Assembly: GCA_001724265.1 (NCBI GenBank)
Contig: MEDY01000087.1
Location: 124,001 to 158,660, forward strand
Source: Rhizaria sp. SCN 62-66
Taxonomy: Eukaryota
DNA length: 34,660 nt
Direction: 5' to 3'
Below the pieces are notes generated by a model. It saw only the letters and a program-made list of their open reading frames with translations, was not told the origin of the DNA and made no database searches. The translations under genes and the position numbers were made by a program. Shown here piece by piece: positions 2,200 to 25,500 of the stretch (position 1 is the first letter of the stretch; every line of letters starts with the position of its first letter).

Positions 2200-3165
2200 T
2201 CAGTCCTCCTCGTCCTTCATCATGCGGCCGCCGCCCTCTGTCCCCGCGGCCCCCGCAGTCGCGCCGGCGACGAGGGTGGGCGTGGCGGAGCGCGGCGTCA
2301 CGCTGCCCGGGTTGGGCCCATACGCCAGCGGGTCGGCGGCCGTGAGCGCCGACTGGGAGAGATAATAGGAGCCGAGGCGCGCGTCCTCAACGTCGTCGTC
2401 ATCAAGAAGCAGCTCGAGCGCGTTGCCGTCGCCGTCGAAGAACACAACCTCCTCCTCGCCGGGCGCGGGCGCGATGGGCACGCCCGCGGGCACGGCGGGT
2501 GCGGCGGCGAGCGCGCCGGGGAAGGAGCCCAGCGGGAGGACGCCGACGGGCACCGCGGTGGGGTCCGCGGGCCGCGCGGTGACGCCGCACACGGACTTGG
2601 AGAAGGCGAGCAAGAACTTGCTCGGGGAGGTGTAGCGGAAGACGGGGACGCGGGGCGGGAGGTGCTGCTGTAGGATGAGCTCACAGAGGCGCTGCGCCGT
2701 GAAGGGCGGCGTGTCCCAGCGGTCGATGATGGAAACGATGCGGCGCGCGCGCGTCTCCCACGGCTCGCCGTCCTCGAGCGGGATCGTCTGGCCGCTCGAG
2801 GCAAGCAGGCCAACAAGGATCGAGTAGAACTCGATGCTGATGAGACGCTTGAGCACGGGCCACTGCGCAGGCGGGAGCTCGCCCGTGAGCGCGCAGCGGT
2901 TCAGCGCGCTCCGGAAGCGCTGAGTGTCCGCCGCCGTCAGGGGCGGCGTCGCATTCACAAAGTCTAGCAGGAATGCAGAATAGCAGGCAACAATGCGCGT
3001 GTGAGAGGGGAGAGGCACGGTTGACGGTAGTAGTGAAAGAGTACAGTGTGCAGGATGAAGATAGGAAGGGGGAAGTGACGTACCTTCGAGCTCTTTGGGC
3101 TCAAATGGGAAAACAGGTGCCGCGAGATCAGACGCGGGCGCCTCGGCGCCAGAATAAGACGACAT
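2200..3165 (-). CDS. PPP4R2: Protein phosphatase 4 regulatory subunit 2-like; exons 3165-3084 and 2963-2200, ~281 aa
   Basis: PPFTAQRLCELIL...Y.SPSKFLLAFSK matches the PPP4R2/Psy4 signature (PPFTxQRLCELL...Y...K.L.A..K). Acidic C-terminal part. ATG at 3165, TGA at 2200-2202. Confidence 0.85.
   Translation of the reverse strand: MSSYSGAEAPASDLAAPVFPFEPKELEGTSLPPSYLHPAHCTLSLLPSTVPLPSHTRIVACYSAFLLDFVNATPPLTAADTQRFRSALNRCALTGELPPAQWPVLKRLISIEFYSILVGLLASSGQTIPLEDGEPWETRARRIVSIIDRWDTPPFTAQRLCELILQQHLPPRVPVFRYTSPSKFLLAFSKSVCGVTARPADPTAVPVGVLPLGSFPGALAAAPAVPAGVPIAPAPGEEEVVFFDGDGNALELLLDDDDVEDARLGSYYLSQSALTAADPLAYGPNPGSVTPRSATPTLVAGATAGAAGTEGGGRMMKDEED
2964..3083 (-). other. Spliceosomal intron of PPP4R2 (120 nt, phase 1, no in-frame stop)
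   Basis: Donor GAAG|GTACGT and pyrimidine-rich acceptor TTCCTGCTAG|AC. GC is lower than in the flanking exon. Splicing gives ...PKELEDFVNAT... Confidence 0.75.
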
Positions 3166-3431
3166 AGATTTGGTCTTAGCTTAAATACCCTTGGTGTGTG
3201 CTAGAAATGCGCTTGTCGGACGCAAAGAGCAGATTGCTTCTTAAAGAAATGGCGCCACGACACCCTCGGCCCCGTGCTCGATCAACCACAAGTCGCATTT
3301 GACTCAGTGAAACTCAAAACAAAGAATATTGCGACCTTGATGCATAGGTAGCAATTAAAATTGTGTTTATTAGAAAGGAAACTATGAAAACTATGTTAAA
3401 AGTTCAGTGTTTTTTAAAAGGCTGTGCGCCC

Positions 3432-6400
3432 TTACTCGGAGAAGAAGACGTCGGGGATGTCGAGGTCCTCCATGTGCGTGTTCTTGGGGAAGTGATCTGT
3501 GAAGGACGACGCCGAGATGTAGAGCTCGTCGAACATCTGCCTGTGCGCGGGGTACACCACCGTGGTGCGCCTGCGCGGGAAGCAGCACCGCAGACAGAGG
3601 CATGCGAGCACGACGCGGCCCAGGAAGGACTTGCGCCACGTGCCCTTGGACGAGGTCGAGGGCATCAGGTGGTAGATGCGGCCGGCCAGCGCCGTGCGCG
3701 CAATGTACCCGGCGTCCTTGGCGTCCGTCACCAGCCCCGGACTCGCCGCGCCGCCCGCGGCGTCGCCCAGAGGGACCGGGACGGCGTCGGAGGTGTTGCG
3801 GCCGTTACCGTTGCGGTCACTACCGTTGCTGCAAGTGCCGCCGCTCTCGTTGCTGTTGTTCATGCGCAGCGCGGCGGCGCTGGTGGCGTAGTCGTAGTGT
3901 GGGTCATACTCGATCGCGCCCATGAACGACTCGTACGAGTCGTTGCGGCCTACCTCGCCCAGCGCGGCGCCGTTCTCGTCAAACTCGCCGTCGTCGCCGT
4001 GGTCGCCAGCGCCTGTGCCCGCGGTGTGGCGGCCGGCGTAGTCGCTGTAGTCGTAGCCCAGCGCGATGGCCTCGGTCATCTCGGTCACCGCCAGCGCCAG
4101 CTCGCGGTCGCTGTCAGTCTCCTCGCTCCTGCCGCCGCCGCGGGGGTTCGGGTGGCTGTGGCCGGTGAGGGTGGAGTAGTTCGGATGGCCGTGGACCGAG
4201 AGACGCGCCTCGGGGACGATCGGACTCACACCGGCGCCCGCACCGGCGCCGGCAGACTGCTGCTCGTGGCTGGGCAACGAAACCATGGCGACCGAGCTAT
4301 TACCACCTGTTGCGCCGCCGCGAGACATCACGGTCACGCCCTTGGGCACGGTGGGGGCGAACTCGGGCGACGTCGCACTCGAAGTCACGCCAGATGCCAC
4401 ACCGGAGCCGGAGCCGGAGCCAGAGCCAGAGGCGATGTCATTGGCGTTACTGTTGTTGTTGCCGTTGGCGCTGAGCGTGCCGCTGCGCGAGCGCGCCATC
4501 TGCTGCTTGGCCTGCGCGCGCCGCAGCTTGGACCGGCTCTGCGCCGTGTCCGCCCGGGGCCGGCCGCTGGCGCCGACGCCGCCGACACCGACGCCGCTGC
4601 CATCCTCGGCCTCGGAATCAGAGACCACGCCGAGCTGGTGGATGTCGCGGGGCGGCGCGGTGAAGAGCGTGTCGTTGAAGCCCTCGTCAAAGCGCCAGTG
4701 CGGCGGGAGGCGGGTGCGGTCGAACATGTCGCCGTGGCGGCGGTCCAGACTCGCGCGGAAGATCTGGAACTTGTTGCCCGCGCACACCTTAAAGGCGTTC
4801 ATGATCTGCTTCTTAAGGCGGAACAGCGCGACGAGCGAGAGCCGCGAGATGAGGTCGTAGCGGTACGAGATGGACGTGACGGCGTCGCGCATCTTCTCCG
4901 CGAGCGCGGGGTCGACGCACAGCGGCGGTGCGAAGGCCACGCATTGCAGCGAAGGGTACTGGCGTGCGAGCAGCACCGTGAGCAGCGTCGCCACGCCCGC
5001 GCCCAGCGAGTGGCCCGTGAGCAGCAGCGACAGCGGCCGGCCCCGCGCCGCGCGGTCGCGCAAAAAGCCGTGCATGGACCAGCCCGAGGCGCCGTCGAGC
5101 TCACGCATGAGCCACTCGGCCGAGACCAGAATGCCCTTGTGCGCGTAGTAGGACGGCGCGCAGGGGATGTAGGCCATGCGCGCGTCCAGGTCCGTCACCG
5201 TGTCGGCGAGCGACATGGTGCCGCGCACGGCGATGACGAGACGGCCTGACTTTTCGTCGACGGCGACGAAGTAGGACACGGTACCGTAGCGCGACTCGAT
5301 GTTAGCGTGCAGGATGTCCTCTGCGCGGAGCCCGGTGTGCGTGAGAAACGCCTTGGCGGAGGAGTTGAGGCACAGCGCATCGCAGCAGCCGGAGCCGTTA
5401 AGCACGCCGCGCGGGAACGTGTAGCCGCAGTCGATGAACCCGCCGGGGCGGCCGCAGCCGAGCCCGCAAGCCTGGCAACCGAAGACGCCGCGGCACGGGT
5501 TGTCGAACACAAAGAGCGGCCAGCCGTACGCGCCCTGTGCGTAGCGCGCGAAGTACTTGGCGAGGCGCACGCGCTCCCAGTCCTCCTCGGCCAGCTCGGG
5601 CTGGCGGCCCGACATGACCTCGTCGACCATCCACTGCTAGTGGCCCAGCGCCTCGGCCTCAGCGCGCGAGAGCGAGAAGCGCGACACGGGCCGGCTGTTG
5701 CTGGTCCCCGCGGGCACAGCCACACTCGCGTCGAAGCCAGTGCGGGCACTGGCGGTCACCGACGCAGAGGCTGTAGTGGCTGATTTAGGAAGGACGGAGA
5801 CGGAGAGGGCGGCGCCGCTGTCGGTGAACGCGGCGCTCTCCGTCTACGCCTCCGTCTGAGCCTGCGACTGCGGCTCGGCGAGCGCGCCGACACTGGCCTT
5901 GTCGACGGTGACCGCGACGGCAGCGTCGGCCTGCACGGCGGAGTTGCGCCACGGCACCGCGACATCGATGCCCGTGCCGGAAACCGTGGGCAGGTCGAAG
6001 TTCCCCGACTGCGTCATATCGCCCTTCGCAGCGCCCGCGTCGGCGGACTCGGCCGCGGCGGACTCGGCCGAGGCCGGGAGGGGCACGACGCCGGTGCGGC
6101 CGCGCGTGGCGGCCCCCGCGGCGCGCTCGCGGTCGCCCGCGCTTTCGGCCGCGCGCTGCGCCTGCTCGCGCAGCCCCGCCGCGCGCTGCGCCTCGTGCCC
6201 GTCGCCAGCCCCGCGCTCCGCGGACGCCGCCGCGGCGGCAGACGCGCTGGCCGCGGCCGACGACAGCGCCGCCGCGGCGGACTCGGCGGTCGTTCCCGCT
6301 CCAGCAGCCGGCCCACCGGCGGCGCCCGCTGCGAGCGACTCGGGGGCGTTGATTGTCGCGACGGGCAGCGGCGACGTCGCCAGTGTGCGCGGCGGCGGCG

Positions 6401-8746
6401 GCGGCGGCGGCAGCAGCGTCTCGATCGGCCGGTTGGTCCGCGTGATCAGCCGCAGCATGGTCCGCCGCGCGCGCGTCAGAGCGCTCTCGCCCTCCCCGTC
6501 CAGCGCGTCTGCAGCAGCGCCCGCGCCGGCCGCGGTGCTGCCCTGCTGCTGCAAGAGCGTACGACGCTCCTCCTGGTCCACAGGGGCGTCTTCATACGCA
6601 GTGGCCAACGCGGCCGCGGCGGCGCGGGCGCGAGTGCCGTCCCAGCGCGTGCGCTTGTCCGCGATGAAGAACTGGTGGCCGGCCTTGGTGGCCTGGCGCT
6701 GCGCCGCCTGCACGAGCAGCAGCCCTACGGCGACGTCCGACGGCACCATGCGCGCGTCCTCGTCGCCGTTAGTGAAGAGCTCAGCGATCACCGGCGCGAG
6801 GGAGTCGTACACGCCCGACGCGTTGTCGTCAGAATAACAACAAAAGACCTTGCGGAGGCGGCGCGCCCACGTGTCCTGGCTCGTGCGGTTGCGCTTGGCG
6901 GGCGCGGCGAGGTAGAATGAGCACGCGGTGAGGCAGAGCGTGAGGATGGTGCTCGTCCACGCTAGCCCGAAGAGCGCGATCACGATATTGCGGATGTGGT
7001 AGAACAGCGCGTGCGGCGCGACAAAGCAATCCTCCTGCAGCTGCGCGATGGCGTAGGAGGAGAAGACCGTGATGCCGAGGAGTACTGCGAGGAAAAAGAT
7101 GCGGCAGTACATGAGCCCCACCATGGCGCGGTTGCGGCGGAACATGTTGCTCTTGAGCGCGGCGATGATGACTGCGGTGTCGAGCGCGACGTGCGCGGAC
7201 CAGAGACAGATGTGGGCCAGCACCATGGCGCGCAGCAGGTCCATGTCGGTGACCGTGCACGCGGGCGAGTCGGCCGAGGACGGGCTCGCCGAGTGGTCGT
7301 CCTAGAAAATATAGAGAATACACATTAAGGCATGGATATGTGAGTAATTGTGCTTCTTTTTTAGACAGAAGAAGCACATATATTCAATGTCATAATTGAG
7401 TCCAGAATATAATATCATATGGAGAACAAAGCACACCGATAAAAGATATCTTTGTTAAACGTAAAACCTGCTGTCACTCCTCGTCAGCGACCTCGACGTA
7501 CCTGGTAGATGAGGCCGCGCGCGGTGGCGGCCAGCACGAGCATGACGACGGACCAAAGCAGCGAGCACACACCCGGGCAGACCATGTCCTCGCTGCCCAG
7601 GTACCAGTTGCGGCGGAAAAGTTTGAAGCTGCTCTGCGGCATGCGGGGCGCGATGTCATCGAAAGTCACGTCGTTGTGCAGCGAGCCAGTGAACGAGGCC
7701 GCCGTCTTGGCCTTGCGTATGCTGCTACCGGCGCTGCCGGAGCGCGGGGTAGCGACGCTCACGCCGCGGCGCGACGGCGTCATCGCTGACGCCGAGCGAC
7801 CGTGAGAAGAGTGACCGTGAGCGGTGCCAGTCGCGCCAGAGAGAGACGACGAAGACAGAGACACGGTGGTGGACGCTGTGGGGGCGTTGGGCGCGGGGAC
7901 GGGGTCGTGGTCAGAGTGCTGGTAAGACGCACCTGCAGCAGCACCTCCAGCCGCACTCGCGCCCGCCTGGGAGTCCGCGTGTGCGCCTGAGTTGGTGTCG
8001 CCATGCTCTGCTCTGCTGTTGCCGCGATTGGCGTCACTGCCGCTCGCGCCGTCGTCGCTCTGCGGACTCGCGGCGACCGCGGCGGGGTAGTCGCTGCTGT
8101 CCGAGCCCAGCAGCGGCGTGTTGAGCTGCTGCCCCGCAGCCACGCCAGAGCCAGTGCCCGCACGGCCACGGCGTCGGCCGCTTAACTGGCGCTCGATCCC
8201 GGGGGCAGAGATCGCGGCGGCGCCGGCGGGGGTGGCGGAGAGCGGGCCGGCGGGGCCCAAGTCGGAGTTGCCGCTGCCCTCTCTGCTGTCCACGACAAAG
8301 GTGTCGTAGCGGCTGCCCTGAGGCGGCGGCGGGGTCATGCCGGTTGCACCGTAGTCGGCGGGGGCGCGGTGCGACGCCGAGACAGACGCAAGCGGGGAGC
8401 CGGCGTCCGGCCGCGTGGAGCGACGAGCGGAGTCGGGGTCATCTGTGAGAGACAGCACTGCCGCGATCGACGCGAACGCGCGGGGCGGCACGGGCGGGCC
8501 GTGCAGCAGACCGGCGGCAGCAGCCGGGACAGCAGCAGCCGCAGCGGCGGCGGCGGTGGGGCGGCGGGCGGCGGACGGGGAGTTGCGGGGGCAGCGCGCG
8601 AGGCCGTCGTTGTCGTCGTCGCGGAGACCGTGATCGCCGTTGTCGCCGTCGTGCTCATGCTCAAACGCGTCTGCAGTCAGGGACTGTGAAAGGGCATTGG
8701 GGAGCAGCGAGGCAATGTCCTCGGCAGGGTGCGCGAAGGGAGGCAT
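3432..8746 (-). CDS. DAGL: sn1-specific diacylglycerol lipase (DAGL alpha/beta-like, lipase class 3); exons 8746-7502 and 7301-3432; two in-frame TAG codons; ~1704 codons if read through
   Basis: DAGL N-terminal motif MP...FRRNWYLGSEDMVCP (ATG 7642), about four TM helices, VPSDVAVGLLL, A.Y..AYGWP, VIAVRGTMSLADTVTDL, HKG, nucleophile elbow TGHSLGAG (~4995-5019), DLISRLS and terminal DHFP. The three ORF-track pieces join via one intron and one continuous frame with TAGs at 5844-5846 and 5637-5639. Ends in TAA. The start at 8746 is inferred. Confidence 0.85.
7302..7501 (-). other. Spliceosomal intron of the DAGL-like gene (200 nt, phase 0)
   Basis: Donor CAG|GTACGT, AT-rich body, CTTAAT branch-like site and acceptor TATTTTCTAG|GAC. 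Joins ...GLIYQ to DDHSASP...MDLLR in frame. Confidence 0.9.
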
Positions 8747-10142
8747 GGCGCGGGTGAGGCGCGAGCGCGGGGAGAGAACCGGGGCGGTAGCGCGTTGAGG
8801 GCTCGGTTGGGAGGAGAGGTTACGGAAACTAAGATACGGAAGGGAAGAACAAGATTGGCGGAGTGCCTTGAGATATATGCTAATAAAGACAATTATTAGA
8901 TAGTAATTTTTGAGTGGCAGTTTGATTGGACGCTCGAGATCCTGTGAATTTGTTGTGTGAAGAACTGAAGACGACACTTCACACGTCGAAGGGTGGACTG
9001 ACGCGTTTTGCGCAAGAAGACATGTGAACAGAGTATTCCTGACAAAAAAAATAACAATAAAGAGAAGGATAGATCGCATTCAGCATGGATAACACATCAC
9101 ATCTGATCATTCTATTCTCTATCTTCACTTGCAGGCATTCTTCGTTAGCAGCCACAAGCTCGCGCACTCGGGCACTTGGTTGTTGTCGCTCTCAGGCAAT
9201 AACAAGACGGTGGATTAATGATAATATCCCCGAGTGAATAAAATCGATTTGACACGATGATTACATGTGTTGGTTTATTGTGTAATTCGTTGTTTTGACT
9301 TGAATCATGCACATACCACTTGTTTGCCACCTTGAAATGTGACAGAAAGACGACGGCACTCAAGCGTCGTGTGAACTCTCTTCGAGCTGTCATGGCGCGA
9401 TATGAGAGCGCCGGAAGCTCTTCAGCAACTTTAAGCTCGTACCTGCCATTTAATTCGGAATACTTGCGCGGTATTTCGACCAAACCTCATTAGTGCCTGA
9501 CTTGAATCCCGTATATGAATGTTCGCTCTGTCGCACATGGTTGGTTGTCGTTGAAACATGCCTGCGAATACGTTCCAACAAGGTTCTGACATGACACGGA
9601 CTGCGCGACGTATAGTGATCCAAGCAGAACAAGCATGTTGAGCAGCAAGAGCAACCGGCAAGTTGATTATGACTCCTCTGATGTCTCTACTAGACTACGG
9701 AAGTCGGGCTTAAGACGAGGGCTGCGTTGGCATTGAGAAACACTGATGAACAAAATGGTGTCCTCCGACAGTATCGCAAATGTATAATATAATATTGCCA
9801 CTTTTAAACCTGAACTTCGAGCGACATTGCAATCAGACGTCGTTATACCTGTGAACGTGTTTGTTTTGCTGATGATGTCACAGTTGCACAGGTCGCCCAC
9901 GAGGCTGACAGAGCCTTGGGTGAAGACGCTGACGCAGCATTGGTATTCTCCACACATATTCGTTAAATAGGCATATTGTAGTGATAACACAATGTAAACA
10001 TGAGTACCACCTATTATTATATTTTTTTACTGCAAGAGGGCTTGATCTTCACCGTCAATTATGCATAAATCTTATCCTCCTTCGTCACTTCGCGATATCT
10101 CGACGCTTCTCTCCCTTGCCCGCGCTCCACAGCGGCTCCCCC
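8747..10142. promoter_or_regulatory. Divergent intergenic region between DAGL-like and SLC35B1 genes
   Basis: AT-richer 1.4-kb spacer between two head-to-head start codons; no convincing CDS. Confidence 0.4.
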
Positions 10143-11336
10143 ATGGCTCAGCCTGTCGCCCGCAAGGCCAATAAGAAGCCTTCCGCGACCTCTACGGCCT
10201 CCGCGGACTCCAAGCCCACTTCGCTGCCCTCGGACGCCAACTCGATCAACGGCGGCGATGAGGTCGCCGGCGCCGCCCCGGCCCCGACCTCTGCGATGCG
10301 CGACGTGCTCGAGCTCCTGGCATGCACGCTCTCGATCTACGCCTGCTACATCGGCTACGGCCTGCTCCACGAGAAGATCACCCGCACGGCGTACGGCACG
10401 GACGCCGAGACCGGCAAGCCCGCGCGCTTCGTGCACTCGCTGTTCCTCACCACCGTCCAGTGCCTCGGCAACGCCGCCTGGGCGCTGCTCCTCATCGTCA
10501 TCGCCGCTTGCCGCCGTCCCTCGCACCACGCGCACGGCCCCGGGCACATTTCCGTTGGCACACACATCTATCACCTCGTTTTTGACCACGTTCCCAAGCA
10601 CAAGTACGCCCTGATCGCTTTTTCCTACTCGTTGGCGATGTTTTCATCCACGTCCGCGCTCAAGTTCGTCTCGTACCCGATCCAGGCGCTGGCCAAGTCC
10701 TCCAAGCTGATTCCCGTCATGGTTGGCCGCATCCTCACGGGCGCTAAGTACACGGTCCGCGAGTATCTGCACGTATTCCTCATCACGGGCGGCATCGCGG
10801 CCTTCTTCTACTTCGAGACGCCCAAGGCGGCCGCCAAGGCCGTGGCCGAGAACAGCTGGTGGGGCGTTCTGCTGCTCGGCGTGTCGCTCGCCATGGACGC
10901 CGTCACGGGCCCCACGCAGGAGAAGGTCTCGCACGACTACAAGCCGACGGTGATGACCATGACGTTCTGGATCAACATCTTCCCTTTCGTCGCCATGGCG
11001 GCCTTTGTCGCCTTCACGGGCGAGCTCCACCAGGCCGTCGCCTTCTGTCGTGACCACCCTGAGGTGCGGCTCGACCTGGCCGTCTACTGCTTCCTCTCCG
11101 CAGTCGGCCAGAGCGTGATCGTGTGGGCGCTGTTCCGTTTCGACAGCATGACCGTTACCGTAGTCACCACCACGCGCAAGTTCTTCACCATTCTCGCCTC
11201 GGTCTTCTGGTTCAACAACTCGCTCAACTTCCTCCAGTGGCTCGGCGTCGTCGTCGTGTTCATCGGCATTGGTGCAGACTCGCAGTACAAGTACGCGCTC
11301 AAGAAGAAGAAGCACAGCAAGGTCAAGGCCGAGTGA
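10143..11336 (+). CDS. SLC35B1: SLC35B1/HUT1/UTR1-type nucleotide-sugar transporter family protein (ER), 397 aa, single exon
   Basis: Multiple TM helices. Family motifs YGLLHEKI, SYPIQALAKSSKLIPVM, DAVTGPTQE and TTTRKFFTILASV. C-terminal KVKAE is a KxKxx ER-retrieval signal. ATG 10143 marks the start of GC-rich codon usage; ends in TGA. Confidence 0.92.
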   Translation: MAQPVARKANKKPSATSTASADSKPTSLPSDANSINGGDEVAGAAPAPTSAMRDVLELLACTLSIYACYIGYGLLHEKITRTAYGTDAETGKPARFVHSLFLTTVQCLGNAAWALLLIVIAACRRPSHHAHGPGHISVGTHIYHLVFDHVPKHKYALIAFSYSLAMFSSTSALKFVSYPIQALAKSSKLIPVMVGRILTGAKYTVREYLHVFLITGGIAAFFYFETPKAAAKAVAENSWWGVLLLGVSLAMDAVTGPTQEKVSHDYKPTVMTMTFWINIFPFVAMAAFVAFTGELHQAVAFCRDHPEVRLDLAVYCFLSAVGQSVIVWALFRFDSMTVTVVTTTRKFFTILASVFWFNNSLNFLQWLGVVVVFIGIGADSQYKYALKKKKHSKVKAE

Positions 11337-14138: not shown

Positions 14139-15595
14139 GTTGTAGTGCTGCACTCGAAAGAAGGGCGAAAATGATGAGGAGGTTGATAGAGGATTGAAGG
14201 GAGGTCGACAAAAGCCGTGGTGAGATTCGATTGAACCAGAATTAAGAAAACACGCACAAAAACAACTTTCCTATCGTAAACACAAAGAATAAACCGCAAT
14301 AAACGATGATAAGTACACCAGGTCACATGAGATAAGTTGAGGAGCTGGAAGCAACAAGTTTGTCTCAGTCGGCGGGCAACAGCAGCAGGCGAAGGGGTGG
14401 GCCGAAAAACATCAAGCGTCGCGCGCCACCGACCAGCTCGTCGGAGGTTTTACGACGTCATCCAGCCTCGAACTTATGACGGGTTGATTAACGGGGCTGA
14501 AGCGCAACGAGCAAGGCGCGTTTTGACGCGGGAGTTGCACCACGAGCAATAGCTGGGGCTGGCGTGTATCGTGTGCGATTTGATTTTGCACGATCGCGCG
14601 GCGGGGGCGGGTGCGAGGGCCAATAAGGCTGGCGGAGCGTGGTGGAAGAGTCACTGTACCCACCCCTAACGCCGAAAGGAGGGGTGTGATGGGCTTCGGG
14701 CCGCGCGGAGCGCAATTGACGATGCTAATCGGTTTTTTTAAGGAATGAGTAAAGCGTGCTGAAGTGAAATGCCGCGGAGCTGCCGCCAAAGGGGTCCTAT
14801 AGGGCCGTATTAAGGGTGCCGGAAGAGGTCCCAACGTTCGAGGGCTCGCTTACTGAATCGTGCATTTAGCTGCATAAACAAGTGCCTTTGTGAAACTAGC
14901 CGTGTTTTGATGTATGAGAGTGTGTTGGGTAGCTGTTATTACTATGCCCTCAGTGCAACAGTCAATACAGGTGCAGAAAAGTGTCATAAGCTGTAGAGTT
15001 AATAGTTACACCCGCCAATGCTGGGTGCCACAAACGGGCTTCGTACTCTGTGTATTGCGCAGCTGAATGATAAAAAGACATCGAACTCATACAAAGTGCC
15101 CTTAAGAATGACTCCAATGCCGACGAACTGTGCGTGTGCGACGTATGTAGCCCGAAATGTCACGCTTGAGACCCAGGACAGAGACAAGTCAAGCCGCTTA
15201 GAACCACCTGGGTAGAAAATGGCCTGCTCGATTTCTGATTGGGGCATTGTAGAGCGGATCACGACCACGGGGTGAGGCTGGAATCAAACCATATCATAAT
15301 TCTCATGATGTTATTTATGTGCCAGGTTGGACGTGCGTATGTCGTCATGGTTATAGACGGAACAAAGCCCGAGTATGACTATTCCGTGTTACTGTGTAGT
15401 CGCCCCTGCTTGCTCACTGATTCCCATGCATTTTTCGCTCTACCCAACCACTCATTGTTTCTATCCTGCTGTCCCCGTTTTAGCGGTGAGATTTCACACA
15501 CGTTCCTTTTTCTTGCGTAAGTTGTGAGCGAGTCTCAGAGCGGATAAAACTCCAGCGAGAGATCTTCACACTGTGTCATTCTCATACCCCCCCTT
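14139..15595. promoter_or_regulatory. Divergent (head-to-head) intergenic region; GC-box-like and CCAAT elements
   Basis: Lies between ATG 14138 (-) and ATG 15596 (+). GGGGGCGGG at 14603-14611 and CCAAT at 14620-14624. Function is inferred from position only. Confidence 0.4.
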
Positions 15596-18500
15596 ATGTC
15601 GTCGCACCCGCACACCGGGGCGCCCACCGCGTCCCCCGCGCTTGTGCCCGCGACGTCACACCATCTTAAGACTCTACCCGCGTCTTCTCTCTCTAAAACA
15701 GCCACAATCACCGCCCCACGCTCGCTGTTAACGGCTGGTTCAGTCCACTCGTCAGCTACCGTCTCGAATCCCAGCAGCACGAGTACCGCTTCAGGACCCT
15801 CCTCCGCCTCCCTCGCAGCCTCGTCCCTCGCCCGACCGCTCTCGGGCTACGCCTCGCTGCTGCCCGGCACCAAGCCCGCCGCGCTATCGCCCACAGGCCT
15901 GCCCGCCGCAAAGCTCTCCTTGTCCTCGTCGGCCAACACCGCCGCCAAGCCCCTTTCTGGTACCGCCTCCTCTGCCGCTACGGCCTCCGCCTCGGCCGCC
16001 GCACTAGCCGCCGCCGCGGCCAGCCGCCCCGGCGCGCCCAGACCGGCGCTGTCAACGGCGACGCCGCCCGTGGGCCCCCGCCCCGCGCTGTCGACGGCCG
16101 CCTCGGCGCTCGCCCCCGCCCTGCGCGCGTTACCCCCCGCGTCCGTGTCCGCGCTCACGGCGCTCGGCGGGCACGGCAGCAGCAGCAACGGCGGCGGCAG
16201 CGCGGGCGCGGACAGCAAGTACGCGGCCCGGCTAACGGCGGCGTCGTTCCTGACGGCCGCGCACAAGACCGCGGGCGCAGGCGCGGGCGGTGGCGCGGCT
16301 GCCGCGAGCAACACGCAGCAGAGGCTACTGTTCGGCCGCCCCCCTGTCTCGACCTCGGCCGCTGCTGACGGCGGCTACGGCAACGACAACGACGCCGGCG
16401 ACGATACGCATGGCGACGGCGACGACGATGACGACGACGATGGTGACGATGACGACGAGGACGGCGATGGAGACATCTCCCAGGCCCGCGCGCGCCGCCG
16501 CCTCGCCACCGCCGCGGACTCTGACGCCGGCGCCGGCTACGCGGTGGCGGCCCAGCGCGGCCGCGGCGGCACCGGGCGCGGGCGCGGTCGTGGCCGTGGG
16601 CGCGGCCGCGGCCGCGGCGCCGGCTTGGCCGGGGTCGGCCGCGGCGGTGCCAGCGCCCGCGGTGACGCCGGAGTCGGCGCCGGCGTTGTGCCCACGCGCC
16701 AGACGTACAGCGGCACCGGCGACAATGACCACGTCAACGGCGCCGCCGACGAAGACGACGACGACGAGGTCGATGACGATGACGCCGACGGAGACGACGC
16801 CGCCGACCTCGCCACGCCGCGGCAGCCGCGCTCGCGCAGCACGGGCTACGACTCGCGCCAGATCCTCGCTGACCAGCTTCACCAGGTACGATCCGCACTC
16901 GACACACACCGACACACACACGCTCTCAGAGGCACACGAAGTCAGACTCGCGGAGAATGCGAAAGTGTTGACTCGAAGAGATGAATGACAATGAGTCCAA
17001 TTTATTCTAATATACGTTCATAGTCAACCAACTCTTTGTTATTTTTATAAAACAATCATTGTTATGATTAAATGCAAATCTCTCACTTTATCTTTTCTCT
17101 CAACTCCGCTCCTTTTTCTCACTGTCCCCAGGCCGCTGCGGCGTCGACGACGCATTCGTGGGCCCGCGGCCGCGCGCCCCGTGGCCGCGGCGGCCGCGGC
17201 GGTCGCGGTGGTCGCGGCGCGAGCCTCGCCGCCCGCGCCTCGCAAGCGATGGCAGCTGCGCGCGCCGCCGCAGCGTCTGCCGCCGCGTCGCTGGCCCTGT
17301 CTGGCGGCAGCTCCAACGCCGCCGCGGCCGCGGCGGCCAACAACGCGGCGCTCCTCCGCAGCGTCGGGCTTGCGCCCGCGGCCGGCAGCCCCGCGCTGGG
17401 CCACCAACACGCCGCGCACGCGGGGGCGGGCGGCGCGGGGGGCAGTTCTGGCGGCGTGGCGCTGCTGGCCAACCTCCAGGCCGCTGGGCTCTTGCCGCCT
17501 GGGCTTCTTCCGTCGGGGCTCGCCAACCTCGCAGCCGGCCTCAACGCAGCTGGCCTCAACGCCGCGGGTCTTGGCGCGCTGACCGGCGTGGCAGGACTCG
17601 GCGGACTGGCCGGGCTGAGCGGGGCGCCCTACGGCGCCGCGGCCGCCGCGCTCTCAGCCGCCGGGCTCTCGGGTGGCGTGGCCGCACCGGGCGCCGGGAG
17701 CGGCGCGGGCGGGCCGGCGACGGCGAACATCAACACTGTCGCGGGGCTCAACACCGCGGCCTCGGCGGCCTTCAACGCGGCCGCCGCGCTTGCGCTGCCC
17801 GCGACCTCAGGCGTGTCCGTTGGCACCCTCAACGCGCAGGCGCAGCGGCCGAACCTGGTGGACCGGCTCGTGCTCATCACGTCAGGCAAGCACCGCGGCA
17901 AGTCGGGCGTGGTCAAATTCTCCGGCCACGGCTTCTACTGCATCGCCATCGAGGGCGAGGTCGACGTCATGAAGCGCGCCTCAGAGTTCGAGATTGTGCT
18001 CACGCCGCAGCCGGCGCCCGCCGCCGCCGCCGCCGCGGGCCCCGCAGGCGCCGCCGGTGCCACACTTGGGGCCGGGCTCGCGGGTGGACTTGCGGGTGGC
18101 CTTGGGGCCGGGCTAGGAGCCGGACTCGCTGGCGGACTTATGGCAGGCGGCGCCGGTGGCTTGGGGGGCGACGCCTCGGGTGGCAACGCGGCGCTACCCT
18201 TCCTGGCGATGCACCAGCAGCAGCACGTGCTGCAGCAGCAGCAACAGCAGCAGCACCTGCTCCTACTGCAGGCGCTCCAGCAGCAGCAGGCCGCGCATGC
18301 GCAGGCGCAAGCACAGCAGCACCACCAGCACCAGCACCAGCAACAGCAGCAGCACTCGCTGTCGGCGCTCGCCGGCGGCAACTCGGCCCTGACGGCACTC
18401 CTCAACTGGCAGCAACAACAGCAGCACCAGCAGCATCACCAGCACCAGCAGCATCACCAGCACCAGCAGCAGGGCGCCGAGTCCGACTCGTCTGTGTCTA

Positions 18501-19330
18501 ACAGCCCCGTCGGTGTCGTCTCCGCCCTGACCGGCGCCCGCTCGTCAGGGCTGCACAGCGCCGAGAGCCAGGCGGCGCTGCAGCAGGCGCTGGCGGGCAG
18601 CCCGTTCCTGCTCATGCAGCTCATCAGCCGCGGCGCTCTCAGCGCCACCGAGGCTGCCGCGGCCCTTACCGGCAGCAGCAACAACAGCGGCAATGCCATG
18701 CTCGCCAACACCGAGGACATGAGTCTTGAGGCTCTCGATGCCGCACTGAACGGACACAACAACGCCGAGACTACAGATGCCGACGCTTTGCCTGCTGCCG
18801 ATGCTGCGGCCAATGTCAATGAAGCCGACGCGGCTGCTGACAGCGCCAAGACTAACTCTGCCAACAGCGACAAGAACGCCGGCTCTGACGCGGCCCTTGC
18901 TGCCGAGACCGACGCCGCCGTGGCCGACGCTGCGACCGAGACCTCCCCCGTCCCCGCCGGCGCCTCCAGTGTCCCCAGTGCTGCTGACGCCGACGCCGAC
19001 GCCGACGCCGATGCTGAGGGCTCTGAGGCTGAGGTTAACGCCGTCGCCGCTGCCCCGACGGCGACCGCGACTGCGACTGAGAACTCGAGTGCCAACGCCA
19101 GCGTGGCCTCCGGCGTCGACGCGAGCCCCCGCAGCCACGCCCACGGTCAGAGCCAGAGTCAGAGCAGCGCCGGCGCCGGTGTCGGTGTGAGTAACAGTGC
19201 TGCGAACGCGCCTGTGTCTGCGGCAGCAACGCTGCTGGCCGACGCCGCGGCCGCCCCCGCCGCCGTGGCCGCGGCAGGCGGCATCGCGCCCTGGCTCTAC
19301 GACATGTACCAGCACCAGCGACAGCTCGCA

Positions 19331-19368
<38 letters not shown>

Positions 19369-19569
19369 ACAACAACAGCAACAGCAGCTGCAGCAGGTCG
19401 CCGCCGCCGCCGCCGCCGCCGGGGGGGGCAACACCGAGGCGCTGCTTGCGCTGCTGCTGCCGCAGCTGCAGGGCATCCAGGACCAGCAGGCCAAGGCCGC
19501 CGAGCAGGCGCGGCAGGAGCAGCAGCAGCTGTTGCTGCATATGCGCCAGACCCAGCAGCAGCAGCAGCA

Positions 19570-19608
<39 letters not shown>

Positions 19609-19860
19609 CCCGAACCAACAGCACGGCGCCGCGCGCATGCAGCAGATCCAGGCCGCGATCGCCATGGTGCAGCAGCAGCAGCTCCAGCACCAGTACCAGC
19701 AGCAGCAACAGCTGCAACAACAGCAGCAGCTGCAGCAGCAGCCCGGCGCTAGCAGCGGCAACAACAACAACAACAACATCTTTGCCGCAGCGATCGCCGC
19801 CGCCCAGGCCCAGGCCCAGGCTCAGGCTCAGATGCAGATGCAGATGCACGCGCTCGCCCA

Positions 19861-19891
<31 letters not shown>

Positions 19892-20167
19892 GTGTCGGGC
19901 CCCGCCGGCTCCGGTCTGTCCCCGCTGCTGCAGCCCCAGGCCGCGGCGGGCTCCGGCGGTCCCAGCCCCGGCTCCGGCCCCGGCTCCTCGGCGGCGGCGC
20001 TGGCGCAGCTGCTGTTGCAGCACCGCATGAGCGGCCCAGGGAGCGCCGGGGACGACGAGGGCGAGTTCGCCGGCGTTGTTGGCGTCGTGCCCCACGCGCA
20101 CGCGCGCGTGTTGTCGGCCGCCAAGACTGCGGACCCCGCTGCTGCGGTCGGCGCTGCAAGTGGCGTC

Positions 20168-20204
<37 letters not shown>

Positions 20205-20227
20205 GCGCGGAGCTGTCGGTCGAATAA
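15596..20227 (+). CDS. Low-complexity protein (~1461 aa) with RG/RGG boxes, one KOW-like domain and long polyQ tracts; exons 15596-16885 and 17132-20227
   Basis: Two ORFs joined in frame by a phase-0 intron. LVLITSGKHRGKSGVV (within 17852-18001) fits the KOW motif. GRGRGRGRG and RGGRGGRGG tracts, poly-Asp and polyQ/QH. Ends in TAA. Confidence 0.8.
16886..17131 (+). other. Spliceosomal intron (246 nt, phase 0)
   Basis: Donor CAG|GTACGA, AT-rich body, long polypyrimidine tract and CCCCAG|GCC acceptor. Joins ...DQLHQ to AAAAST... Confidence 0.9.
19319..19742 (+). repeat. Coding CAG/CAA microsatellite clusters (polyglutamine)
   Basis: Runs of (CAG)n with CAA interruptions at ~19331-19396, ~19553-19606 and ~19670-19742. 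Further runs occur at ~18215-18470 and 20170-20202. Confidence 0.95.
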
Positions 20228-22586: not shown

Positions 22587-25500
22587 TTAATAGTATGTAG
22601 GTGCGCCGTGAGCACCTGAACCTGCTGTGTTCACGTTTGCACGAGCATAGCTGCGCGCCATGTCCCGCTTCACACGGTCAAACTGGCTAGCTGCTGGCGA
22701 CACGCCGAACCCCGCAAGCCGCTCAGCATCGCTGAAAAAATACTCATGCACATTGCCATCCCAGTTCTGGCCCTGTAACGGCACTCGCGACACAGCAGCA
22801 GCTGCAGCTACGCCAGCGGCAGAAGACGCGGCGGCCACAGCGGCCGTCGCAGCTGCGGCAGCCTCCTCGCCGGCGTCGCCCTTGCGCCGGCCCGTGCCCG
22901 CTGCAGCCGCGGCAGCAGCTGCCGCAGCTGCTGCGGGGCCTGCCGCTGCCGTTGCTGCTGCTGATGCCGCAGCCGCAGCAACAATAGCTGCTGCTGCACC
23001 TTCTGCCGCGGCCGCACTTGCCTTGTAAGCGGCGGCGCGCGAAGTCTCTCCGACCGTCGCGACCGTGACAACCTCTGCGCCCTCCGCAACGGCGTCCTTG
23101 GTGAGCACGATGCCGGCACCGAGACGCACGCGTTCGCCTTCCGCAAGCCCGCGGGCCTCGCGCCTGTGCGCGCGGACGGACCCGCTCATCTCCCCGGTCA
23201 AGCCTGCGGGCAGCGCGCGACCACCGCGGTTGGTGACCTCGCCCAGCACCGCGCTCGCGCCCGCAGCGTGCAACGCGCGGCGGTGGGCGCGCGCCGAAGC
23301 CGCTGCAAGCGAGGCGGCAGCTGCAGCGGCGCTGGGAGGAGAGTTCGGCGGAAGAGGCCTCCCACGCGCAGTGGAGTTCGCGGCAGAGATATTGAGCGGA
23401 GCGAATGACACGTTGTGAGTCGTCGTTGACGAAAACGAACTGGTGTTGTTGTTTGCATGCGCACGATGCGACACCAGCTGCGGGAGTGACTGTGGCGCTC
23501 CAGCTCGGAGTGACTGTGAAAGAGAATGTTGCTGTGTAGTTTGGCGGCGAATGCGGGGCGTTGAAGGCCCAGCAGCATCTTCTGGCCGCTCCAACCGGAG
23601 TGTAAAGCTGTGCTCATACAGATCATATGAAGTGAGTCCTGACGCACTCATGGGGCCTGCACTCGAGGCATTTGTCACAGCACTTCCAGGCGCGCCAGGG
23701 CCAGCAATAAGACTTCCGAACGTCGCGGGACGACCTGCTTGCGAGAACGCGCGCCGCTGCTGATACTGCAGCGCGGTCCGCAGCATCTGCGTGGGCACAC
23801 CTGCCAACGGGTCGTTGCTGTTTTTGTCTCCATGAATCGCTGTAGTCGTGCGAGGGCGGCGCAGCGCAGCACGGGGAAGAGAATAACCAGTGCCAGCATC
23901 TGCCCCACCAGTGTCGCCAAAAGAACCCGACTGCTGCAAGCGGTGAAGAGCACTGCGTTCAGTGACAGCGCCGGAAGCTGCTGAGTGGCCTTGCGCTGGT
24001 GCAGGCCGCATTGAGACCGCAGACGCGTGCGCACCAGCGTGCTGTGCCGCGAGCGCAGCCCGGTAGCGCCGCCACCGCTTGTCTTCAGCAAGAGCAAGTC
24101 TGAGGTCGTCCGCGCAGGCGACACCAGTTGCGCCGGCCCCCGCCGCACCGGAGCCAGGGGGCGCGACGGCAGCAACCCCCGCATCAGCGGCGTCGCCGGG
24201 TAGCACTGGCACGGCGATGGGGGCAGCAGAAGCGGACAGAGCAGCCGCAGGGCCCGCGGTGGCGGCAGTGCACGCGCCACTCCGCCAGACACCCAGAAGC
24301 CCGTCGGGAGATAAAACAGCGTCCCAGTCAGCGCGCGCAATGACGACCACGACGCTCTCGCAGTCCCGCGAGACGACAGACGCTGTGCGCACACCCGCAG
24401 CGGTGCGCCAACTTTCACCAAGCACAGTGCCCGCCAGGTGCGCGGTGTACAGCGGCAGCGAGATTAGTCCACCCGCGGAGCGCTCAATGGAGCGTTTCGT
24501 GCTGTTGACGCCACCAAACTCAGCTCCAGCTCCGGCCAACGATGCAGTGCGCGCAGAGATCACATGATCCTGCTGCTGCAGAGGACAAGACGGAGCTGAC
24601 GGCGGGGGCGCGGCGCGCGCGTACAGAGGCTGCATCTCCTTTGCGCGCGCCAGAGGATTCTGCGCGCGCATCAGACGCACCAAATACGGCAGCTGCAGTG
24701 AGAGCGCGGAGAGCTCGCCCAGCAGTGAGTACGGCCCGACAGTGCCCAGATGCAGCACCGATCCATTGCTTTTACCGCTGCCATTTCTGGCAGCGCGTGG
24801 AGGCAGCTCTTGGAGCACGTCGAAAGTGCCAGTGAGCGGTATCACCACGCCGTCGGGCTGCGGCGACTCTGCGAGCGCGGGGATCTGCGTCACGCTGCCC
24901 AGGCCCAGTGCGCGGCAAACACGCGCAGTCGCGGACAGAGGCACCCGCTTCGCACTGGCGGCGATCTTTGCGTTCGCACTGTCGACGGCGCTGGTATTGT
25001 TGAGATTGAGTCCGGGTGACGACGGGAACACGTACGCAGCAGCGGCCAGCGCGTCAGTCGACAGAGCCAGAGAAGCGTTGTGTTCTGCAGCGGCTCGGCG
25101 GCGCGCCAGTGGCAGCGCACCGACCCCGCGCAAATGCGGCGCGCCTTCGTCGACCGCAGACGCCGCCGCCAGCGCACGCGCGGAGGCGTGCGGAGACCAC
25201 AGAGCGCGAGCGCGCGCACGAGCGCGGGCGCGGGAACGGGCGGCAGACGCAGCCGCCGCGGCAGCCGGGTCAGTGCGGGCAGCGCGGCGCAGCGCCGCAC
25301 GACGCTTCTGACGCGTCTGCGCCTCTGCTTCGGTCTTTGCTGCGGTGACTGCAACAGTGTCCGTGTTGTCCGCGTCGGCCTCGTCACCATCGGGGGTCGC
25401 TGCGTGACGCACGCTCGCACAGGCTGTGTCGAGCGTGGTGCGCGCAGGCCAGTGGTACGCCAGCGCGCGCGCAGCCGCGGACAGCAGGTCCGCCTGCATC

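What the first reader, a model, noticed from the sequence alone, without database searches (positions are those of the whole stretch)
5628..5870. Two in-frame TAG codons in an otherwise intact DAGL gene: candidate UAG-to-Gln recoding or readthrough
Seen: the TM half (ORF ending TAG 5846-5844) and the catalytic half (ORF from 5630) share one frame, and the 68 codons between the two TAGs are open and coding-like in GC content. Translation: ...EPQSQAQTEA*TESAAFTD...AEAEALGH*QWMVDEV. The first TAG lies in a local duplication, CAG ACG GAG GCG TAG ACG GAG, exactly where CAG (Gln) stands in the first copy. The second reads CAC TAG CAG. The stretch lacks the AT-richness, phase-compatible GTACG donor and polypyrimidine acceptor of this window's introns, and the adjacent GC|GTAGAC donor gives the wrong phase. 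Known: DAGLs carry TM and lipase domains in one polypeptide, and nuclear UAG-only reassignment is rare but described in a few protists (e.g. UAG=Gln in Iotanema). Inference: UAG is decoded as Gln at low frequency, by a variant code or programmed readthrough. Caveat: no in-frame TAG occurs in the other six genes, even in long polyQ tracts, so CAG-to-TAG mutations or base-call errors remain real alternatives.
Basis: partly seen in the sequence, partly recalled or inferred. Interest (0 to 1): 0.85.

Follow-up and report, generated by a model that had tools for sequence, protein, structure and literature searches.

The report
Two amber stops inside a lipase gene
A membrane-anchored lipase gene of an uncultured GC-rich microbial eukaryote carries two real in-frame TAG codons where its relatives have ordinary codons, so it is probably a recently broken gene, and leaky reading of TAG is still possible but untested.

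Summary
On the minus strand, TAG 5846-5844 and TAG 5639-5637 lie in one frame with a 4-TM half and a class-3 lipase half of one DAGL-like gene.

- **The TAGs are not errors.** The two ORFs that they bound recur unchanged on 7 and 6 assembled contigs. An independent run matches across TAG2 with no differences.
- **They are not in an intron.** The 68 codons between them score as coding in the gene's frame. Two full-length single-chain relatives (P0120, P0121) align straight across TAG2.
- **UAG=Gln is not supported.** TAG2 replaces a Glu that both relatives share (GH-E-QWMVDEV). The other 8,960 codons of the window hold 376 Gln codons and no in-frame TAG. The two TAGs are clustered (P about 0.015).
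- **My reading (0.45):** two recent nonsense substitutions in ancestral coding sequence, giving a young disrupted allele.
- **Main rival (0.33):** leaky UAG readthrough. TAG1 lies in the gene's most exceptional hairpin, TAG2 is followed by CAG, 0 of 8 gene ends use TAG, and the lipase half shows no accelerated change.

No RNA contig covered the site, so splicing, editing and readthrough remain untested.

The parts
7502..8746 (-). Exon 1 of the DAGL-like gene (415 codons from ATG 8746-8744): low-complexity N-terminus and the first TM helix.
   Evidence: It is an open frame. Alignment A3 shows the block PPRMPxSGF...GAEDMxFPxxC shared with P0120 and P0121. Hydropathy gives a segment at 498-525 of the ORF-plus-exon-2 string printed. 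The choice of start codon is inferred.
7302..7501 (-). AT-rich intron of 200 nt, phase 0: CAG|GTACGT...TTTCTAG|GAC.
   Evidence: Sequence, GC about 0.30, donor found. The relatives' proteins run continuously across the junction. No spliced read was seen.
5847..7301 (-). First part of exon 2: TM helices 2-4, the conserved block VPSDVAVGLLLVQAAQRQ, and an Ala-rich disordered linker.
   Evidence: ORF of 485 codons with GC3 0.90. TM-domain hits to P0120 (50% identity) and P0121 (44%). Hydropathy.
5835..5858 (-). Tandem 12-nt duplication CAGACGGAGGCG / TAGACGGAGAGC. TAG1 stands where the first copy has CAG.
   Evidence: Read directly.
5844..5846 (-). TAG1, an in-frame amber codon in the non-conserved linker.
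   Evidence: P0119, which ends here, is on 7 contigs. No significant local alignment to the relatives covers it.
5794..5857 (-). Predicted RNA hairpin enclosing TAG1. The inner GC stem starts 7 nt 3' of the UAG.
   Evidence: Inverted repeat with arms 5795-5814 and 5829-5848, 85% complementary. MFE -58.2 kcal/mol for 5890-5790, z -3.64, with 1 of 200 shuffles folding as well. Rank 1 of 517 windows of the gene by GC-corrected MFE.
5640..5843 (-). The 68 codons between the TAGs: ancestral coding sequence in the gene's frame.
   Evidence: Codon log-odds 0.575 bits per codon, the 70th percentile of 466 in-frame windows; 0 of 932 off-frame windows reach it. GC3 is 0.83. BLASTP alignments to P0120 and P0121 extend 37 and 14 residues upstream of TAG2.
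5637..5639 (-). TAG2, an in-frame amber codon at the place of a Glu shared by both relatives (GH-E-QWMVDEV), followed by CAG TGG ATG.
   Evidence: The X5 contig on 5439-5665 is identical. P0001, which starts 2 codons later, is on 6 contigs.
3432..5636 (-). Catalytic half plus C-terminal region, ending in TAA 3434-3432. Lipase_3 domain with GHSLG (Ser codon 5009-5007), Asp codon 4856-4854 and His codon 3494-3492.
   Evidence: Pfam PF01764, E 2.5e-17. GHSLG and D259 are invariant, and H713 is conserved in 90% or more, across 11 sequences including named DAGL-alpha and DAGL-beta. Best named hits are DAGL-beta at about 35% identity.

Best explanation
The two TAGs are genuine amber codons that arose by point substitution inside ancestral coding sequence of a single-chain, DAGL-type, membrane-anchored lipase gene. 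TAG2 most simply came from GAG (Glu) by a G-to-T change. TAG1 possibly came from CAG, within a 12-nt tandem duplication.

Under the standard code, which the rest of the window fits, translation stops at TAG1. The product is then an N-terminal fragment of about 900 residues, with four TM helices and no lipase domain. On this reading the locus is a very young disrupted allele: a nascent pseudogene or a truncation.

**Shown:**
- The TAGs are real.
- There is no intron.
- Relatives have sense codons at the alignable site.
- There are no other in-frame TAGs in the window.

**Inferred:**
- The ancestral codons.
- That no recoding rescues the gene.
- That the event is recent.
For: - **Reproducible DNA.** P0119 is on 7 contigs and P0001 on 6. 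An X5 contig is identical across TAG2.
- **Relatives are uninterrupted.** P0120 and P0121 are single chains. Both have Glu at TAG2 inside the motif GHEQWMVDEV, one substitution away from TAG.
- **The inter-TAG codons are coding-like in frame.** So the stops are young lesions in an exon.
- **No sign that TAG is a sense codon elsewhere.** There are 0 in-frame TAGs in 8,960 codons, including 376 Gln and 291 Glu codons.
- **The stops are not conserved in relatives**, unlike typical programmed readthrough sites.
- **TAG is the expected nonsense outcome here.** In a genome with GC3 about 0.9, G-ending codons are common. This step is inference.
Against: - **Little other decay.** There are two stops only 69 codons apart (P about 0.08 within the gene). 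There is no frameshift or other stop in 1,702 further codons.
- **No accelerated change.** The catalytic core has 19 lineage-unique changes against 21 in the intact relative P0120. GHSLG and Asp are invariant and the His is near-invariant.
- **Both stops sit where readthrough is known to be favoured.** TAG1 has a 3' stem at a 7-nt spacer and the most exceptional GC-corrected structure of 517 windows. TAG2 reads UAG-CAG-UGG, which is 5 of 6 positions of the yeast motif UAG-CAR-NBA (passages of PMC3159437).
- **Gene ends avoid TAG.** 0 of 8 use it.
- **The allele is widespread.** It appears in runs dated 2015 to 2025: X1-X3, and the part of it that X5 covers.
Confidence: 0.45

Rival explanations
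1. Leaky UAG. The stops arose by mutation but are read through by near-cognate or suppressor tRNAs, either at these two favourable contexts or because UAG is a weak terminator in this organism. Some full-length DAGL is therefore still made and the gene remains under selection.
For: - The lipase half is intact and not accelerated, and its catalytic residues are kept.
- The GC-corrected structure at TAG1 ranks 1 of 517 windows, with an inner stem 7 nt 3' of the UAG. Known sites have spacers of 7-9 nt (PMC3159437, passages).
- TAG2 is followed by CAG, with C at +4. CAR codons are about 4% of codons.
- 0 of 8 gene ends use TAG.
- The stops are TAG only, they lie close together, and no frameshift accompanies them.
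Against: - I looked for these context features after the fact.
- Reading through two stops multiplies two small efficiencies.
- The stops are not conserved in P0120 or P0121.
- The CAG after TAG2 is ancestral (EQW in the relatives), so it did not evolve for readthrough.
- No tRNA gene lies in the window.
- With a typical 20-30% TAG usage (recalled figure), 0 of 8 has P of only about 0.06-0.17.
- No RNA or protein data exist for the site.
Confidence: 0.33
2. Genome-wide reassignment of UAG to a sense codon (Gln, or Glu), as in Iotanema or the rhizarian exLh.
For: - Two in-frame TAGs lie in a conserved gene.
- 0 of 8 terminators are TAG.
- UAG-only reassignments do exist (PMC5304391, passages).
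Against: - 0 TAG among 7,258 codons of the 7 other genes, and 0 among the gene's other 1,702 codons.
- P(0 of 376 Gln codons) is about 2e-14 at Iotanema's 8% share, and 0.023 even at 1%.
- TAG2 aligns to Glu, not Gln.
- The clustering (P about 0.015) points to a local cause.
Confidence: 0.04
3. Split gene. A TM-only protein ends at TAG1, and a soluble lipase is made separately from ATG 5630-5628, by an internal transcript start or by reinitiation.
For: - The first ATG in any frame after TAG1 is the in-frame ATG 6 nt after TAG2 (read).
- P0002, at 46% identity, is a 484-aa lipase-only ORF that starts at the equivalent place.
Against: - There is no AT-rich intergenic or promoter-like island between the halves, unlike every real gene boundary in the window.
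- The inter-TAG codons keep coding signal in frame.
- The conserved motif spans TAG2 in the relatives.
- Having no ATG in about 213 positions of 70% GC sequence is not unusual (my estimate, P about 0.2).
- P0002 lies on a 2.4-kb contig whose upstream sequence I could not see.
Confidence: 0.06
4. An unrecognised in-frame intron or exitron removes both TAGs. An example is the GC-AG pair GAG|GCGTAG (5849)...CACTAG|CAG (5637), 213 nt.
For: This pair is in frame and removes exactly both stops. It is the shortest of 330 in-frame GY..AG pairs.
Against: - None of the donor hexamers resembles the window's GTACGT/GTRNGT donors.
- GC is 0.67-0.74 here, against about 0.30 in the real intron.
- The segment has in-frame coding signal.
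- It is homologous to translated sequence of P0120 and P0121 right up to TAG2.
- With Ala and Val codons common in the linker, a GY dinucleotide at that spot is expected by chance in about 1 case in 3 (my estimate).
Confidence: 0.05
5. Restorative A-to-I editing turns UAG into UGG in the mRNA, as in the premature-stop-correction genes of filamentous ascomycetes.
For: - In fungi, UAG is the favoured editing triplet, with a preference for hairpin loops. 71 genes of F. graminearum, including PUK1 with its two tandem UAGs, need such editing (PMC11156358, passages; abstract of PMC4817773 from the listing).
- TAG2's A lies in the loop of a predicted small hairpin, CCACU-AGC-AGUGG.
Against: - Editing would give Trp where both relatives have Glu, so it would not restore the ancestral residue.
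- The region around TAG2 folds no better than shuffles (z +0.6).
- The organism is not identified as an ascomycete; its best named hits are animal DAGL-beta at about 35%.
- No RNA reads cover the site.
Confidence: 0.04
6. Sequencing or assembly error, or a chimeric contig.
For: The contig comes from a metagenome assembly.
Against: - The same two ORF boundaries occur on 7 and 6 contigs.
- The X5 contig is identical across TAG2.
- Runs X1-X3 hold 0.98-0.99 of the sampled words of 4800-6800.
- Homology to single-chain relatives is colinear on both sides.
Confidence: 0.02

Closest known systems
sn-1-specific diacylglycerol lipases (DAGL-alpha and DAGL-beta; Pfam Lipase_3 with an N-terminal 4-TM domain)
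   Same: - Lipase_3 domain.
- GHSLG and Asp invariant and His near-invariant when aligned with named DAGLs.
- Four hydrophobic segments ahead of the lipase domain.
- Conserved VPSD..GL.L block.
- Best named hits are DAGL-beta at about 35% identity.
   Different: - The ORF is interrupted by two TAGs.
- It has a very long Ala-rich linker (about 390 residues between the conserved block VPSD..GL and YGWPL), a 415-codon N-terminal extension and a long C-terminal insert.
- Activity was not tested.
Young nonsense-disrupted genes (unitary pseudogenes or loss-of-function alleles)
   Same: In-frame stops created by single substitutions in otherwise conserved coding sequence. Orthologues are intact.
   Different: No frameshifts, no rate acceleration and catalytic residues kept. 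The two stops are 69 codons apart and both lie in contexts that favour readthrough.
Context- and structure-stimulated UAG readthrough (TMV-type UAG-CAR-YYA, yeast UAG-CAR-NBA, MuLV pseudoknot with an 8-nt spacer; PMC3159437, passages)
   Same: TAG2 is UAG-CAG. TAG1 is followed after 7 nt by a stable GC stem.
   Different: - Only 5 of 6 motif positions match.
- The site is cellular, with two stops in series.
- The stops are not conserved in relatives.
- No product has been shown.
UAG-only nuclear code variants (Iotanema spirale UAG=Gln, rhizarian exLh UAG=Leu; PMC5304391, passages)
   Same: In-frame UAG in a conserved gene. UAA and UGA are used as terminators and TAG is not seen as one (0 of 8 gene ends).
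   Different: In those organisms UAG is spread over many genes (about 8% of Gln codons in Iotanema) and aligns with the cognate residue. Here there are none in 7 other genes, and the alignable site is Glu.
Premature-stop-correction A-to-I editing in Fusarium and Neurospora (PMC11156358, passages)
   Same: UAG codons inside an otherwise intact gene, with two in one gene as in PUK1, and hairpin association.
   Different: The ancestral residue at TAG2 is Glu, not Trp. The lineage is unknown. There is no RNA evidence.

Membership tests
DAGL-type lipase | Class-3 lipase domain | tested here: met
   PF01764, 63.5 bits against a cut-off of 22.
DAGL-type lipase | GXSXG nucleophile with conserved Asp and His. 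That these three form the catalytic triad is recalled, not tested. | tested here: met
   GHSLG and D259 are invariant, and H713 is conserved in 90% or more, across 11 aligned sequences including named DAGL-alpha and DAGL-beta.
DAGL-type lipase | Four TM helices N-terminal to the lipase domain, in the same polypeptide | tested here: inconclusive
   A crude Kyte-Doolittle scan finds four hydrophobic segments. Relatives are single chains. Here two TAGs separate the TM part from the lipase part.
DAGL-type lipase | sn-1 diacylglycerol hydrolysis | not testable with these tools
   Needs an enzyme assay.
UAG=Gln nuclear code variant | In-frame UAG spread over many genes | tested here: not met
   0 in 7,258 codons of 7 other genes. 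Only this 34.7-kb window could be examined.
UAG=Gln nuclear code variant | UAG aligns with conserved Gln in homologues | tested here: not met
   TAG2 aligns with Glu in 2 of 2 close relatives. TAG1 cannot be aligned.
UAG=Gln nuclear code variant | UAG absent from true gene ends | tested here: inconclusive
   0 of 8 gene ends (TGA 4, TAA 4). The sample is too small, and the ends of genes D and E may lie in introns.
UAG=Gln nuclear code variant | tRNA with a CUA anticodon; altered eRF1 | not testable with these tools
   No tRNA gene lies in the window and no genome is held.
Programmed stop-codon readthrough | Stimulatory 3' context or structure | tested here: inconclusive
   TAG2 reads UAG-CAG-UGG, 5 of 6 positions of UAG-CAR-NBA. 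TAG1 has a stem after a 7-nt spacer and ranks 1 of 517 windows. These are predictions only.
Programmed stop-codon readthrough | The stop codon and the downstream ORF are conserved in relatives | tested here: not met
   P0120 and P0121 have sense codons there.
Programmed stop-codon readthrough | A readthrough product is observed | not testable with these tools
   No RNA contig covers 5584-5860, and there are no proteomic data.
Pseudogene | Disabling lesions in a formerly coding sequence | tested here: met
   Two in-frame stops where relatives have sense codons.
Pseudogene | Relaxed constraint: extra lesions and accelerated change | tested here: not met
   No frameshift or other stop. The catalytic core has 19 unique changes against 21 in P0120. 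A very young pseudogene would look the same.
Fungal premature-stop-correction editing | The ancestral codon is TGG and editing restores it | tested here: not met
   Glu in both relatives at TAG2.

The most novel reading that the evidence does not exclude
UAG is a weak, ambiguous terminator in this uncultured GC-rich protist, which would make it an early intermediate on the way to a stop-codon reassignment. On this reading TAG is avoided at gene ends (0 of 8). Amber substitutions can then drift to fixation in-frame where the local context (a 3' hairpin, or a following CAG) makes them leaky. The DAGL gene would still yield full-length enzyme through double readthrough.
Probability: 0.15. Interest if true: 0.8.

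Novelty: new member of a known kind. Interest (0 to 1): 0.38.

Why it matters
If the stops are plain nonsense mutations, this is an ordinary young broken gene in an uncultured wastewater eukaryote. The only lesson would be that gene callers will split it into two proteins, as the public collections already do (P0119 and P0001).

If full-length protein is made, it would be a rare cellular case of two amber codons decoded in series. It could also be a snapshot of the ambiguous stage that codon-reassignment theory postulates.

The question is cheap to settle. The organism recurs in public bioreactor and wastewater runs, and a 162-kb contig carrying this same ORF is on record.

Tried and rejected
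**RNA evidence (the single read-laying run).**
- I laid runs X5, X6, X9 and X11.
- No contig of the RNA runs X9 (polyA) or X11 covers 5584-5860. No junction was seen at the known intron either.
- Splicing, editing and transcription across the TAGs therefore stay untested.
- X9 contigs at 3546-3853, 4315-4667, 5381-5583 and 7796-7991 show only that both halves are present in that library, and DNA carry-over cannot be excluded.
- X5 behaves as DNA, because its contig runs unspliced across the intron.
- Only 28 of 149 pieces were listed.

**Whole genome.** None is held, so there was no genome-wide stop usage, no tRNA-CUA search and no eRF1 check.

**Related DNA.** I ran five scans and none gave a locus. 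They were metagenome contigs with the lipase core and with P0002, genome contigs with the lipase core and with P0120, and viral contigs. I therefore could not see the relatives' codons or the sequence upstream of P0002.

**Earlier findings of this scan.** Three look-ups returned nothing.

**Rfam on 5400-6100.** Only two chance-level matches (E 0.77), far below their gathering scores.

**Intron search.** There are 330 in-frame GT/GC..AG pairs that remove both TAGs, and none has a donor like the window's. The polypyrimidine-like patch with CAG at 5780 or 5771, paired with the GT at 5847, gives 68 or 77 nt. That is out of phase, and the new frame is not coding-like.

**Other ideas.**
- Ribosomal bypassing, and Sec or Pyl insertion, were considered and dropped for lack of any signal.
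- The atlas search with the neighbouring SLC35B-like transporter gave no usable taxonomy, so the organism stays unidentified.

**Papers.** Supplementary files were not consulted. The codon tables of PMC5304391 might refine the 8% figure, which I took from the main text.
Full report
**1. What is there**

The window is a GC-rich (0.64) eukaryotic contig with AT-rich intergenic regions and introns. It recurs in bioreactor and wastewater runs. No whole genome is held for it.

On the minus strand lies one long gene:
- Exon 1 is 8746-7502, 415 codons.
- A 200-nt AT-rich intron is 7501-7302, with GTACGT...CTAG ends.
- Exon 2 is 7301-3432.

Exon 2 reads as follows:
- 485 codons
- TAG (5846-5844)
- 68 codons
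- TAG (5639-5637)
- 734 codons
- TAA

All of exon 2 is in one frame. The part upstream of the TAGs carries hydrophobic segments 2-4 of four. The part downstream carries a class-3 lipase domain (PF01764, E 2.5e-17). When aligned with named DAGL-alpha and DAGL-beta proteins, GHSLG and Asp are invariant and the His is near-invariant. The best named homologues are animal DAGL-beta at about 35% identity.

**2. The TAGs are real DNA**

- The ORF ending at TAG1 (P0119, 466 aa) is recorded unchanged on 7 contigs. The ORF starting just after TAG2 (P0001, 732 aa) is on 6 contigs. The longest contig on record is 162 kb.
- No fused or half-fused protein of this species appeared in three searches whose length ranges would have included one.
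- Run X5 comes from a different study. It behaves as DNA, because its 1,533-nt contig crosses the intron unspliced. It has a 227-nt contig on 5439-5665 with no difference, which confirms TAG2.
- No listed piece covers TAG1. Its independent support is P0119 and the 0.98-0.99 word share of runs X1-X3.

**3. The stretch is not an intron**

- The 68 codons between the TAGs score 0.575 bits per codon in the gene's frame, on a codon log-odds trained on the other genes. That is the 70th percentile of 466 true in-frame windows. None of 932 off-frame windows reaches it.
- GC3 is 0.83 there, against 0.90 in the flanks.
- Of 330 in-frame GT/GC..AG pairs that would remove both stops, none has a donor like the window's GTACGT.
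- An exhaustive HMMER search with the TM domain gave the decisive result. It found two relatives that are single uninterrupted chains: P0120 (1533 aa) and P0121 (1524 aa).
- Across the junction and lipase region, P0120 is 70% identical and P0121 is 54% identical.
- Their BLASTP alignments run straight across TAG2 and continue 37 and 14 residues upstream of it (E 5e-21 and 3e-18).

The inter-TAG segment is therefore ancestral translated sequence.

**4. What the TAGs replace**

TAG2 sits in the motif GH-E-QWMVDEV, shared by both relatives, and both have Glu there. GAG to TAG is one transversion. TAG1 lies in the non-conserved linker and cannot be aligned reliably. Its only clue is the 12-nt tandem duplication in which the first copy has CAG.

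That test fails at the one site where it can be applied.

**5. Is TAG a sense codon in this organism?**

- In 8,960 codons of 8 genes there are 376 Gln and 291 Glu codons and no in-frame TAG apart from these two.
- At the 8% share of Gln codons reported for Iotanema (PMC5304391, passages), the chance of none in 376 is about 2e-14. At a 1% share it is 0.023.
- Two random codons fall within 69 of each other with P about 0.015. The cause is therefore local, not a general code.
- On the other side, none of the 8 gene ends uses TAG (TGA 4, TAA 4). The sample is too small to weigh, and two of the ends (genes D and E) may lie in introns.
- No tRNA gene lies in the window.

**6. Broken gene or rescued gene?**

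*For a plain young lesion:*
- The stops are not conserved in the relatives.
- They are one substitution away from sense codons.
- The rest of the window fits the standard code.

*Against long-standing decay:*
- There is no frameshift or further stop in 1,702 other codons.
- A three-taxon count shows no acceleration. In the catalytic core there are 19 changes unique to this lineage against 21 unique to P0120. Downstream of TAG2 overall the figures are 32 against 54.
- GHSLG and Asp are invariant, and the His is near-invariant.

*For leakiness:*
- TAG1 lies in a 64-nt hairpin. The 101-nt window 5890-5790 that holds it folds at -58.2 kcal/mol (z -3.64, 1 of 200 shuffles as good).
- That window has the most negative GC-corrected folding energy of 517 windows along the gene.
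- Its inner GC stem begins 7 nt after the UAG, the spacing seen at structure-stimulated readthrough sites (passages of PMC3159437).
- TAG2 reads UAG-CAG-UGG, which matches 5 of 6 positions of the yeast motif UAG-CAR-NBA (same passages).

I looked for these features after the fact. The CAG after TAG2 is ancestral. The region around TAG2 folds no better than shuffles (z +0.6).

*On A-to-I editing:* editing of UAG to UGG, as in Fusarium (PMC11156358, passages), would give Trp where both relatives have Glu. I therefore rate it low.

**7. Verdict**

- The UAG-to-Gln variant-code reading is not supported.
- I rate recent nonsense substitutions, giving a nascent pseudogene or truncated allele, at 0.45.
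- I rate leaky readthrough that keeps the gene partly functional at 0.33.
- The remainder is split among a split gene (0.06), an exitron (0.05), editing (0.04), true reassignment (0.04) and error (0.02).

The single RNA check available covered neither TAG. The decisive data are raw RNA reads over 5500-5950 and a code and stop-usage survey of the organism's other contigs.

Noticed in passing
window 22587-33599 (-): A single uninterrupted ORF of 3,670 codons ending in TAA. It is very low-complexity (rich in Ala, Ser and Thr), has no Pfam family and holds 125 Gln codons.
   Followed up: partly
window 17072-20227 (+): A 1,051-codon ORF with 154 Gln codons (136 CAG, 18 CAA), so it is polyQ-rich. 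It has no Pfam family. The ORF 15548-16984 just upstream may belong to the same gene across an AT-rich island at 16926-17150.
   Followed up: no
gene ends at 1641, 2200, 3432, 11336, 11898, 16984, 20227, 22587: Stop usage is TGA 4, TAA 4 and TAG 0, although GC3 is about 0.9. Half of the ends being TAA is notable in so GC-rich a coding set.
   Followed up: partly
P0002 (a 484-aa protein from another source, on a 2.4-kb contig): A lipase-only relative at 46% identity whose called ORF starts about 12 residues before the AKHF...YGWPL block, near the equivalent of TAG2. Its DNA could not be fetched. It could be an intron, a stop or a true soluble form.
   Followed up: partly
window 4185 and 6944: Run X5 differs from the window at only two places in the covered part of the gene. 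By my reading, one is a synonymous CAT-to-CAC change and the other is Leu to Phe in a TM helix. The same strain, or a near-identical one, therefore occurs in a different study.
   Followed up: partly
window 5758-5793 (-): A run of 12 codons of which 7 end in A or T (CTT CCT AAA TCA ... ACT ACA ... TCT), in a gene with GC3 0.90. It overlaps the 3' arm of the TAG1 hairpin and looks like a polypyrimidine tract followed by CAG.
   Followed up: partly
window 9933-11336 (+) and 2200-3180 (-): Neighbouring genes. One is an SLC35B-type nucleotide-sugar transporter (PF08449, E 6e-51). The other has a weak PPP4R2-like match that is below the Pfam cut-off.
   Followed up: no
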